The position numbers and the translations under genes were made by a program. Of a stretch of 37,205 nt of DNA, positions 29,580 to 32,978 are shown one piece after another (positions within the stretch are counted from its first letter, which is position 1; each line of letters begins with the position of its first letter). The stretch is from a virus (lineage: Duplodnaviria; Heunggongvirae; Uroviricota; Caudoviricetes). The stretch lies in IMG/VR virus record IMGVR_UViG_2721755652_000006. One strand, given 5' to 3'. The notes under the pieces were generated by a model that was not told the origin of the DNA, did not search any database, and saw only the letters and a program-made list of their open reading frames with translations.

Positions 29580-32500
29580 ATGGGTAAAGGCAGCAGTAAG
29601 GGGCATACCCCGCGCGAAGCGAAGGACAACCTGAAGTCCACGCAGCTGCTGAGTGTGATCGATGCCATCAGCGAAGGGCCGGTTGAAGGTCCGGTGGATG
29701 GATTAAAAAGCGTGCTGCTGAACAGTACGCCGGTGCTGGACAGTGAGGGGAATACCAATATATCCGGCGTCACGGTGGTGTTCCGGGCCGGTGAGCAGGA
29801 GCAGACACCGCCGGAGGGATTTGAATCCTCCGGCTCCGAGACGGTGCTCGGTACAGAAGTGAAATATGACACGCCGATCACCCGGACCATCACGTCGGCA
29901 AACATTGACCGTCTGCGTTTTACTTTCGGCGTGCAGGCACTGGTGGAAACCACCTCAAAGGGGGACAGGAATCCATCGGAAGTCCGCCTGCTGGTTCAGA
30001 TACAACGTAACGGTGGCTGGGTGACGGAAAAAGACATCACCATTAAGGGTAAAACCACTTCACAGTATCTGGCCTCGGTGGTGGTGGATAACCTGCCGCC
30101 GCGCCCGTTTAATATCCGGATGCGCAGGATGACGCCGGACAGCACCACAGACCAGCTGCAGAACAAAACGCTCTGGTCGTCATACACCGAAATTATCGAT
30201 GTGAAACAGTGCTACCCGAACACGGCACTGGTCGGCGTGCAGGTGGACTCGGAGCAGTTCGGCAGCCAGAAGGTGAGCCGTAATTATCATCTGCGCGGGC
30301 GTATTCTGCAGGTGCCGTCGAATTATAACCCGCAGACGCGGCAATACAGCGGTATCTGGGACGGAACGTTTAAACCGGCATACAGCAACAACATGGCCTG
30401 GTGTCTGTGGGATATGCTGACCCATCCGCGCTACGGCATGGGGAAACGTCTTGGTGCGGCGGATGTGGATAAATGGGCGCTGTATGTCATCGGCCAGTAC
30501 TGCGACCAGTCAGTGCCGGACGGCTTTGGCGGCACGGAGCCGCGCATCACCTGTAATGCCTACCTGACCACACAGCGTAAGGCGTGGGATGTTCTCAGCG
30601 ATTTCTGCTCGGCGATGCGCTGTATGCCGGTATGGAACGGGCAGACGCTGACGTTCGTGCAGGACCGACCGTCGGATAAGGTGTGGACCTATAACCGCAG
30701 TAATGTGGTGATGCCGGATGATGGCGCGTCGTTCCGCTACAGCTTCAGCGCCCTCAAGGACCGCCATAATGCCGTTGAGGTGAACTGGATTGACCCGGAT
30801 AACGGCTGGGAGACGGCGACAGAGCTTGTGGAGGACACGCAGGCCATTCTCCGTTACGGTCGTAACGTCACGAAGATGGATGCCTTTGGCTGTACCAGCC
30901 GGGGGCAGGCACACCGCGCCGGGCTGTGGCTGATTAAAACGGAGCTGCTGGAGACGCAGACCGTGGATTTCAGCGTGGGCGCAGAAGGGCTTCGCCATGT
31001 ACCGGGCGATGTCATTGAAATCTGTGATGATGACTATGCGGGGATCAGCATCGGTGGGCGTGTGCTGGCGGTGAACAGCCAGACCCGGACGCTGACGCTC
31101 GACCGTGAAATCACGCTGCCATCCTCCGGTACCACGCTGATAAGCCTGGTTGACGGAAGTGGCAATCCGGTCAGCGTGGAGGTCCAGTCCGTCACCGACG
31201 GCGTGAAGGTAAAAGTGAGCCGTGTTCCTGACGGCGTTGCCGGATACAGCGTATGGGGGCTGAAGTTGCCGACGTTGCGCCAGCGCCTGTTCCGCTGCGT
31301 GAGTATCCGTGAGAACGACGACGGCACGTATGCCATCACCGCCGTGCAGCATGTACCCGAAAAAGAAGCCATCGTGGATAACGGGGCGCACTTTGACGGC
31401 GACCTGAGCGGCACGGTGAATGGCGTCACGCCGCCCGCGGTGCAGCACCTGACTGCCGAAGTCACCGCAGACAGCGGGGAATATCAGGTGCTGGCGCGCT
31501 GGGACACGCCGAAGGTGGTGAAGGGGGTGAGCTTCCTGCTTCGCCTGACCGTGGCAGCGGACGATGGCAGTGAGCGGCTGGTCAGTACGGCCAGGACGAC
31601 GGAAACCACATACCGCTTCACGCAACTGGCGCTGGGGAACTACAGGCTGACTGTCCGGGCGGTAAATGCGTGGGGACAGCAGGGCGATCCGGCATCGGTA
31701 TCGTTCCGGATTGCCGCACCGGCAGCGCCGTCTCGGATTGAGCTGACACCAGGCTATTTTCAGATAACCGCCACGCCGCATCTTGCGGTTTATGATCCGA
31801 CGGTACAGTTTGAGTTCTGGTTCTCGGAAACGCGGATTGCGGATATCAGGCAGGTTGAAACCAGCGCGCGTTATCTTGGTACGGCGCTGTACTGGATAGC
31901 CGCCAGTATCAATATCAAACCGGGCCATGATTATTACTTTTATATCCGCAGTGTGAACACCGTTGGCAAATCGGCATTCGTGGAGGCCGTCGGTCGGGCG
32001 AGCGATGATGCGGAAGGTTATCTGGATTTTTTCAAAGGCAAGATAACCGAATCTCATCTTGGTAAAGAGCTACTGGAAAAAGTTGACCTGACGGAGGATA
32101 ACGCCAGCAGACTGGATGAGTTTTCGAAAGAGTGGAAGGATGCTAACGATAAGTGGAATGCCATGTGGGGCGTCAAAATTGAGCAGACCAAAGACGGCAA
32201 ACATTATGTCGCGGGTATTGGCCTCAGCATGGAGGACACGGAGGAAGGCAAGCTGAGCCAGTTTCTGGTTGCCGCCAATCGTATCGCGTTTATTGACCCG
32301 GCAAACGGGAATGAAACGCCGATGTTTGTGGCGCAGGGCAACCAGATATTCATGAACGACGTGTTCCTGAAGCGCCTGACGGCCCCCACCATTACCAGCG
32401 GTGGAAATCCACCGGCATTTTCCCTGACACCGGACGGAAAGCTGACTGCTAAAAATGCGGATATCAGTGGCAGTGTGAATGCGAACTCCGGGACGCTCAA

Positions 32501-32978
32501 CAACGTCACGATTAATGAGAACTGTCAGATTAAGGGGAAACTGTCAGCCAATCAGATTGAAGGCGATATTGTCAAAACGGTCAGCAAGTCTTTCCCCCGC
32601 ACGAGCACTTATGCCAGTGGCACCATCACGGTAAGAATCAGTGATGATCAGAAATTTGACCGGCAGGTCATGATACCGCCAGTGTTATTCCGCGGTGGTA
32701 AGCATGAGAATTTCAACAGTAATAACCAACAGTCATACTGGTATTCAACCTGCCGGTTAAGAGTGACCCGCAATGGCCAGGAGATTTTTAATCAGTCCAC
32801 GACGGATGCTCAGGGCGTATTTTCCTCAGTTATAGATATGCCTGCCGGACAGGGGACGCTGACACTGACATTCACCGTATCTTCATCAGGAGCGAATAAC
32901 TGGACACCAACAACCAGTATCAGCGATCTGCTGGTTGTGGTGATGAAAAAATCCACAGCAGGTATCAGTATCAGCTGA
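29580..32978 (+). CDS. J: Tail tip / host specificity protein J (central fibre) with a non-lambda C-terminal receptor-binding region
   Basis: 1132-aa product matches lambda gpJ through most of its length as recalled ([34 protein letters not shown]…); the last ~150 residues diverge. Confidence 0.93.

What the first reader, a model, noticed from the sequence alone, without database searches (positions are those of the whole stretch)
32500..32978. J with a divergent C-terminal receptor-binding region
J resembles lambda J through most of its length, but the last ~150 residues (…[68 protein letters not shown]…STAGISIS) differ substantially from the lambda LamB-binding domain as I recall it. This implies a different host receptor specificity and a mosaic junction inside J.
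Basis: partly seen in the sequence, partly recalled or inferred. Interest (0 to 1): 0.5.

Follow-up and report, generated by a model that had tools for sequence, protein, structure and literature searches.

The report
OmpC-type tip swapped onto lambda J
The tail-tip protein J of this E. coli O157 prophage is lambda-like for 973 residues and then switches, at one clean recombination point, to a common and already characterised receptor-binding tip that binds the porin OmpC instead of lambda's LamB, so the finding is real but ordinary.

Summary
J (29580-32978, 1132 aa) is 97.6% identical to lambda J over residues 1-973. Identity falls to about 45% over the last 159 residues (nt 32500-32975).

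The switch is a single crossover. Informative sites change from lambda-like to EHEC-phage-like between nt 32486 and 32500. The same C-terminal block sits on J backbones only 71% identical, so it moves as a cassette.

The interpretation (mosaic junction, different receptor) is supported, but it is already known:
- The last 159 residues are 159/159 identical to J of Stx phage phi330, which cannot plaque on an ompC deletion strain and is rescued by ompC.
- They are 157/159 identical to "A8 gpJ", a lambda-J chimera engineered to use OmpC instead of LamB.
- A8 gpJ has been solved in complex with EDL933 OmpC (PDB 9WCB).

The allele is common. It occurs at 95% or higher nucleotide identity in about 1,500 of 5,426 complete E. 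coli genomes, against 98 for lambda's own tip.

The window is prophage Sp8 of O157:H7 Sakai/EDL933, reported as non-inducible.

One caveat: phage 21, with an 81% identical tip, uses LamB, so divergence from lambda alone would not have proved a receptor change.

Novelty: already known. Interest: low.

The parts
29580..32978 (+). Gene J (tip attachment protein / central tail fibre), 1132 aa, intact. It equals ECs_1648 of O157:H7 Sakai prophage Sp8.
   Evidence: ORF list and translation. Pfam matches FNIII-A_GpJ, Phage-tail_3, Ig_J, Ig_J_second, Phage_Tail_Tip and Ig_GpJ_C. 100% match to Sakai Sp8 with annotation.
29580..32486 (+). Lambda-type part of J (hub domains, two FNIII domains, alpha-helical shaft, central straight fibre). 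Residues 1-973 are 97.6% identical to lambda J at the protein level and about 96% at the DNA level.
   Evidence: Informative sites are lambda-like up to 32486. The HepS trigger peptide 902-933, including F924, is identical to lambda.
32487..32499 (+). Crossover interval (codons 970-973, within the conserved [15 protein letters not shown] stretch). No informative sites lie here; parentage switches across it.
   Evidence: Three-way informative-site analysis: last lambda-like site 32486, first Stx-phage-like site 32500. Brodel et al. chose lambda residue 964 in the same conserved stretch as their engineering fusion point.
32500..32975 (+). A8/phi330-type receptor-binding region of J (residues 974-1132): the bottom layers of the beta-prism plus the Ig-like RBD. 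Predicted receptor: OmpC.
   Evidence: 159/159 identical to phi330 J. 157/159 identical to PDB 9WCA/9WCB 'A8 gpJ 713'; the differences are S1009N and T1010S. Pfam Ig_GpJ_C matches 1009-1132 at 124 bits. About 45% identical to lambda, 47% to 434 and 81% to phage 21.
32996..33023 (+). Terminator-like hairpin (GGGCGTCAGAAATGACGCCT) followed by a T-run, between J and lom. Relative to phage 434 the swapped cassette ends about here (last mismatches around 33011).
   Evidence: pattern scan only; 434 mismatches stop at 33011. A terminator is annotated at the same place in phages 434 and 21.
33045..33644 (+). lom (Ail/Lom outer-membrane protein, 199 aa). Its 5' part up to 33516 belongs to the same non-lambda block; it is of the 434/EHEC-phage type.
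   Evidence: Pfam Ail_Lom, E = 1.5e-120. Lambda similarity resumes at 33517 at 86%. 93-100% identical to 434 and Stx2a phage lom.

Best explanation
J of this prophage (O157:H7 Sp8) is a natural chimera. A lambda-type tail-tip and central-fibre body (residues 1-973) is joined, by one homologous crossover in the conserved [15 protein letters not shown] stretch, to a receptor-binding cassette that circulates among E. coli lambdoid and Stx prophages. That cassette is the A8/phi330 allele.

As part of the trimeric fibre tip, its Ig-like C-terminal domain inserts loops into the extracellular mouth of the OmpC trimer instead of LamB. By analogy with the lambda-LamB and A8-OmpC open-state structures, this binding triggers the rearrangement that opens the tail tip.

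Shown here: the identity break, the crossover interval, the cassette's presence on unrelated J backbones, and its sequence identity to tips with experimentally defined OmpC use.

Inferred: that the Sp8 protein itself binds OmpC and would be assembled into particles.
For: Identity break: 97.6% versus about 45% identity to lambda, p = 1.5e-64. The DNA break is at 32500.

Single crossover between 32486 and 32500.

Incongruent N-part and C-part identities across eight phages. Relative to 434, only 32500-33011 differs.

Receptor evidence:
- The tip is 159/159 identical to phi330. phi330 is OmpC-dependent by knockout and complementation (PMC12502783).
- The tip is 157/159 identical to A8 gpJ. Lambda particles carrying A8 gpJ and an LPS-binding P2 side fibre deliver DNA into delta-lamB cells and into delta-lamB delta-ompC cells complemented with OmpC variants (PMC11338833). 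The supplementary A8 DNA matches the window.
- PDB 9WCB is titled 'Open state of A8 gpJ 713 central tail fiber with OmpC G17 from E. coli EDL933' and contains three gpJ and three OmpC chains.
- The hairpins that AlphaFold3 modelling of phi330 places in and on the OmpC barrel (E953-S962 and A1015-P1020 in phi330 numbering) are window residues 1043-1052 ([10 protein letters not shown]) and 1105-1110 (ANNWTP).

Pfam Ig_GpJ_C matches at 124 bits.
Against: - No experiment has been done on Sp8 J itself.
- Sp8 lacks cI/cro and was not seen to excise, replicate or package (PMC2669165), so this copy may never be displayed on a virion of its own.
- Phage 21, with an 81% identical tip and the same two hairpins, natively uses LamB and reaches OmpC by one mutation (I1025T) (PMC11336670). 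Receptor choice in this family is therefore labile.
- For phi330, a contribution of its side fibres to the OmpC requirement was not separated experimentally.
- Whether the A8 tip can also use LamB was not reported in the text I read.
- My own single-sequence structure model was poor (pLDDT 55) and adds nothing.
Confidence: 0.9

Rival explanations
1. The tip still uses LamB, alone or alongside OmpC, as phage 21 does. In that case the divergence from lambda would not change receptor class.
For: The phage 21 tip is 81% identical to the window's and only 49% identical to lambda's, yet its native receptor is LamB (PMC11336670; identities). The two hairpins predicted to contact OmpC are identical in phage 21.
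Against: - phi330, with the identical 159 residues, does not plaque on delta-ompC BW25113, which still has lamB.
- A8 gpJ (157/159) was selected on a delta-lamB recipient and works in delta-lamB delta-ompC cells only with OmpC supplied.
- A8 is solved bound to OmpC.
- Thirty residues differ from phage 21.
Confidence: 0.07
2. The C-terminus diverged in place by rapid point mutation under diversifying selection, rather than by recombination.
For: Receptor-binding tips are known targets of strong selection. Lambda and phage 21 change receptor by a few J mutations in the laboratory (PMC11336670).
Against: - Nucleotide identity drops from about 96% to about 50% across a 13-nt interval and includes indels.
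- The block extends past the stop codon into the intergenic region and lom.
- The same block, 98-100% identical at the DNA level, lies on a J backbone only 71-74% identical.
Confidence: 0.01
3. The gene is a relic in a dead prophage and has no present function as a receptor-binding protein. It matters only as recombination stock.
For: Sp8 lacks a repressor/Cro module and showed no circularisation, replication or packaging (PMC2669165).
Against: - The ORF is intact at full length and all Sp8 morphogenesis genes are conserved.
- The 12.2-kb tail region is 100% identical in the O157:H7 genomes listed as top hits.
- The identical tip is functional in phi330.
- This rival concerns expression, not what the protein binds.
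Confidence: 0.3

Closest known systems
J (tail fibre protein) of Stx2a phage vB_EcoS_phi330 (PV189401; PMC12502783)
   Same: The last 159 residues are identical (159/159), with only 4 synonymous nucleotide differences in the tip. The same lom type lies downstream. Its receptor is genetically defined as OmpC.
   Different: The rest of J belongs to a different lineage (Pankowvirus type, dense mismatches left of nt 32490). phi330 is an inducible Stx2a phage, whereas Sp8 is a non-inducible, lambda-like prophage.
A8 gpJ chimera (Brodel et al., Nature 2024, PMC11338833; PDB 9WCA closed state, 9WCB open state with EDL933 OmpC)
   Same: The design is the same as the natural gene here: a lambda J body plus this tip. 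197/199 residues are identical over 934-1132. It uses OmpC instead of LamB and recognises many OmpC variants.
   Different: There are two substitutions in the loop after FPR (window S1009, T1010; A8 N, S). A8 was engineered with its fusion at lambda residue 964, whereas the natural crossover here lies in codons 970-973.
Lambda J (P03749) receptor-binding domain, LamB-specific (PDB 8XCK/8XCJ; PMC11101478)
   Same: Same overall protein, same length, and the same Ig-like RBD family (Pfam PF12421; phmmer E = 1e-59). Residues 1-973 are 97.6% identical.
   Different: The tip is only about 45% identical, with three indels in loops. The receptor is LamB rather than OmpC.
Phage 21 J (OL657228), native receptor LamB, evolves to OmpC/OmpF use (PMC11336670)
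   Same: The tip is 81% identical without gaps. The [10 protein letters not shown] and ANNWTP hairpins are the same. The position equivalent to phage 21 I1025 is I997 here.
   Different: There are 30 substitutions in the tip. The phage 21 J body is 28 residues longer and 92% identical. The reported native receptor is LamB.
Phage 434 J (OmpC) and the classical lambda h434 hybrid
   Same: Same J body (97.9% identical) and same lom. Only the cassette 32500-33011 differs, which shows that the tip is an exchangeable module. A 'Lambda h434 imm21' record exists in the phage collection.
   Different: The tip is only 47% identical, with a long extra loop after FPK. OmpC is therefore bound by at least two very different tip alleles.

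Membership tests
Lambda-type tip attachment protein J (central tail fibre) | Full J domain series from hub to receptor-binding domain | tested here: met
   Pfam FNIII-A_GpJ (86-207), Phage-tail_3 (330-496), Ig_J (610-714), Ig_J_second (716-818), Phage_Tail_Tip (846-972) and Ig_GpJ_C (1009-1132), all far above their cut-offs.
Lambda-type tip attachment protein J (central tail fibre) | Position in the tail operon after M, L, K and I and before lom, stf and tfa | tested here: met
   ORFs at 27503-28201, 28207-28950 and 28848-29519, then J, lom, stf and tfa. The Sakai Sp8 annotation agrees.
A8/phi330-type OmpC-binding J tip | Sequence of the last ~159 residues matches a tip with experimentally defined OmpC use | tested here: met
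   159/159 identical to phi330. 157/159 identical to A8 gpJ 713 of PDB 9WCA/9WCB.
A8/phi330-type OmpC-binding J tip | Hairpins reported to contact OmpC are conserved | tested here: met
   phi330 E953-S962 and A1015-P1020 (AlphaFold3 model, PMC12502783) correspond to window 1043-1052 and 1105-1110 and are identical. The residue contacts in 9WCB itself could not be read with these tools.
A8/phi330-type OmpC-binding J tip | Infection or DNA delivery depends on OmpC and not on LamB | not testable with these tools
   Shown for phi330 and A8 particles, but not for Sp8 J itself. This needs a wet experiment.
Lambda-type LamB-binding J tip | Close sequence match to the lambda tip (residues 974-1132) | tested here: not met
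   71/159 identical with 3 indels. There is no megablast match of this stretch to lambda.

The most novel reading that the evidence does not exclude
The most novel reading not excluded is this. The Sp8/A8 tip and the phage 21 tip form a natural pair that sits on either side of the LamB/OmpC boundary. They differ by 30 substitutions, have no indels and share identical predicted contact hairpins. Receptor choice in this family would then be set by non-contact residues (trimer packing or tip opening) rather than by the binding loops. The non-inducible Sp8 would serve mainly as a reservoir from which this tip is copied into co-resident O157 prophages, where 3-7 related copies per genome are seen.
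Probability: 0.25. Interest if true: 0.4.

Novelty: already known. Interest (0 to 1): 0.12.

Why it matters
The tip of J decides which outer-membrane protein a lambda-like phage needs, and so which strains it can infect or deliver DNA to. This allele targets OmpC, which is reliably expressed in the gut. It has already been exploited for in-gut base editing and anti-STEC particles.

Finding it in Sp8 adds only bookkeeping. The natural lambda-body plus OmpC-tip chimera that engineers built already exists in O157:H7. This tip is about 15 times more frequent in sequenced E. coli than lambda's own LamB tip. It does not open a new question.

Tried and rejected
- **Structure prediction.** A single-sequence AlphaFold2 model of residues 934-1132 gave pLDDT 55. 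It is too poor for any structural argument. It was used only as a handle to pull PDB titles and release dates through Foldseek; those matches rest on sequence identity, not fold.
- **Loop boundaries in lambda.** I looked for the L1-L4 loop residue ranges in Ge & Wang 2024 to place residues 1009-1010. The ranges are not given in the main text.
- **Literature searches that gave no receptor data.** These covered the ECOR 'PhiR' phages, phages Turner and Chlobot, and 2H10. The Gifsy-1 paper and the 2026 receptor-prediction preprint do not cover this tip type.
- I did not run the large protein-database searches, the search for related loci or the metagenome scans. The phage, E. coli genome and PDB collections already gave identical matches, so the cost was not justified.
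- **In-place divergence.** Considered and rejected; see the rival explanations.

Full report
**1. The observation**

The ORF 29580..32978 on the + strand encodes a 1132-aa protein. I fetched lambda J from NC_001416 and aligned the two.
- Residues 1-973 are 950/973 identical (97.6%).
- The last 159 residues are 71/159 identical, with three small indels.
- Fisher's exact test on these counts gives p = 1.5e-64.

At the DNA level the window is about 96% identical to lambda from 29075 to 32499. The next mismatches start at 32500. From 32550 to the stop codon, identity per 90-nt bin is 46-57%. GC content also falls, from about 0.62 in the J body to about 0.47 in the tip.

**2. It is a recombination joint, not local divergence**

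I aligned the window with lambda and with an Stx2a phage (LC727857) that carries the same tip on another J backbone. Sites where those two differ match lambda up to nt 32486, almost without exception, and match the Stx phage from nt 32500 onward. The crossover therefore lies in a 13-nt interval, codons 970-973. These codons sit inside the [15 protein letters not shown] stretch, which is conserved among all J proteins compared.

Identities for the N-part and the tip are incongruent across phages:

| Phage | N-part identity | Tip identity |
|---|---|---|
| Lambda | 97.6% | 46% |
| 434 | 97.9% | 47% |
| 4A7 | 97.0% | 82% |
| Phage 21 | 91.7% | 81% |
| Stx2 phage 1717 | 73% | 77% |
| Stx2a_1447 | 71% | 66% |
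| Stx2a_JNE082796 | 71% | 100% |

The right-hand end of the block depends on the comparison.
- Relative to 434, only 32500 to about 33011 differs. This covers the tip, the stop codon and a terminator-like hairpin at 32996-33015.
- Relative to lambda, the foreign block runs on through the 5' part of lom to 33516.

The Pfam model Phage_Tail_Tip ends at residue 972, and Ig_GpJ_C ([quoted passage not shown]) covers 1009-1132 at 124 bits. The joint therefore falls at a domain boundary.

**3. What the tip is**

A sequence search of the PDB with residues 934-1132 gave a near-identical hit: "A8 gpJ 713", entries 9WCA and 9WCB (E = 1.5e-126, 197/199 identical). This is far ahead of lambda J (8XCJ/8XCK, E = 1e-59). 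The only differences are S1009N and T1010S.
- Searching the PDB with K-12 OmpC showed that 9WCB also holds three chains of an OmpC variant.
- The entry titles are "Closed state of A8 gpJ 713 central tail fiber" and [quoted passage not shown]. Both were released 2026-01-28.

A8 gpJ is described in Brodel et al., Nature 2024 (PMC11338833).
- The aim was to obtain particles that use OmpC rather than LamB.
- A8 particles carried an LPS-binding lambda-P2 side fibre. They delivered DNA to delta-lamB cells and to delta-lamB delta-ompC cells complemented with OmpC variants.
- The "GpJ A8" DNA printed in that paper's supplement matches the window's tip DNA, including the N-S codons at the two variant positions.

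An exact match also exists. The J gene of Stx2a siphophage phi330 (PV189401) is 159/159 identical to the window from residue 974 to the end, with four synonymous nucleotide differences. phi330 fails to plaque only on the ompC mutant among 54 Keio outer-membrane mutants, and Plac-ompC restores plaquing (PMC12502783). That paper's AlphaFold3 model puts hairpin E953-S962 into the OmpC barrel and A1015-P1020 on its rim. With the 90-residue numbering offset, these are window residues 1043-1052 ([10 protein letters not shown]) and 1105-1110 (ANNWTP). The short loop T918-Y921 is the window's T1008-Y1011, where the two differences from A8 lie.

**4. How common it is and where the window comes from**

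- The tip DNA (32499-32978) is found in 2,590 of 5,426 complete E. coli genomes. Of the matching records, 833 are at 99% or higher identity and 672 at 95-99%, often with several copies per genome.
- Lambda's own tip is found in 98 genomes; the five records listed are laboratory strains, several carrying DE3.
- Among phage records, 44 carry the window's tip at 95% or higher protein identity. Many of these are Stx1a and Stx2a phages.
- The same lambda-body plus tip joint is present in isolated phages such as PhiR29_2, 2H10, Turner and SPF_0923.
- Window 25001-37205 is 100% identical to O157:H7 Sakai prophage Sp8 (J = ECs_1648), to EDL933 and to the other O157:H7 strains listed as top hits.
- Asadulghani et al. 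2009 report that Sp8 lacks cI/cro, keeps all morphogenesis genes, and showed no circularisation, replication or packaging (PMC2669165).

**5. Mechanism**

Established knowledge comes from the lambda J-LamB structures (PMC11101478). The trimeric Ig-like RBD inserts four bottom loops into the receptor mouth. Its base then spreads and its top contracts. The beta-prism above it twists, and the signal travels up to open the tail tip. The deposited open-state A8-OmpC complex indicates the same scheme with OmpC.

I infer that Sp8 J, if assembled, does the same on OmpC. The steps shown here are sequence identity and mosaic structure. Binding by this exact protein is inferred.

**6.

Phage 21's tip is 49% identical to lambda's and 81% identical to this one, with the same two hairpins. 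Yet the Meyer laboratory reports LamB as its native receptor, and a single change (I1025T, equivalent to I997 here) gives OmpC use (PMC11336670). Divergence from lambda alone would therefore not establish a receptor change. The identical phi330 tip and the A8 data do establish it.

**7. Verdict**

The finding is real and precisely located, and its interpretation is right. However, the allele, its receptor, its structure and the modular exchange of J tips (the classical lambda h434 hybrid; Brodel et al.) are all already known. Novelty: already known. Interest is low.

Noticed in passing
window 25001-37205 (whole tail region): This stretch is 100% identical to E. coli O157:H7 Sakai prophage Sp8 (NC_002695.2 1640945-1653149) and to EDL933. 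Sp8 is reported to lack cI/cro and to be unable to excise, replicate or package, although all its morphogenesis genes are intact.
   Followed up: partly
window 33045-33644 (lom): lom is itself mosaic relative to lambda. The 5' part up to 33516 is of the 434/EHEC-phage type, and lambda similarity (86%) resumes at 33517.
   Followed up: partly
window 33703-36624 and 36624-37205: There is an intact 973-aa side tail fibre (Stf) followed by Tfa; lambda PaPa has a frameshifted stf. The gene contains a 132-nt tandem repeat (2.6 copies, 35102-35447), Phage_fiber_2 repeats and a Collar domain. AT skew is unusually strong (up to 0.42) across 34050-35250.
   Followed up: partly
window 32283-32378 (J residues 902-933): The 32-residue peptide of lambda J that triggers the Gifsy-1 abortive-infection nuclease HepS, including F924, is identical here. 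This J would therefore be predicted to activate HepS.
   Followed up: no
L003 (phage 21) 5697-6173 compared with window 32500-32975: The phage 21 tip shares the two hairpins modelled as OmpC contacts ([16 protein letters not shown]) yet is reported to use LamB. The 30 differing residues lie elsewhere, so the receptor determinant in this tip family is unexplained.
   Followed up: partly
window 32996-33015 and 33671-33692: Two terminator-like hairpins with T-runs flank lom, one after J and one after lom. This is consistent with lom being a separately transcribed moron. The evidence is a pattern scan only.
   Followed up: no
window 30510-32057, minus strand: A 515-aa ORF lies antisense to J. It is most likely a shadow ORF of a GC-rich gene. 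It was not examined.
   Followed up: no
L002 (PhiR29_2) 4081-7477: The closest phage record annotates J as two overlapping CDSs, which suggests an apparent frameshift or sequencing error in that record. Its tip carries the A8 residues N1009/S1010 plus R1038L.
   Followed up: no
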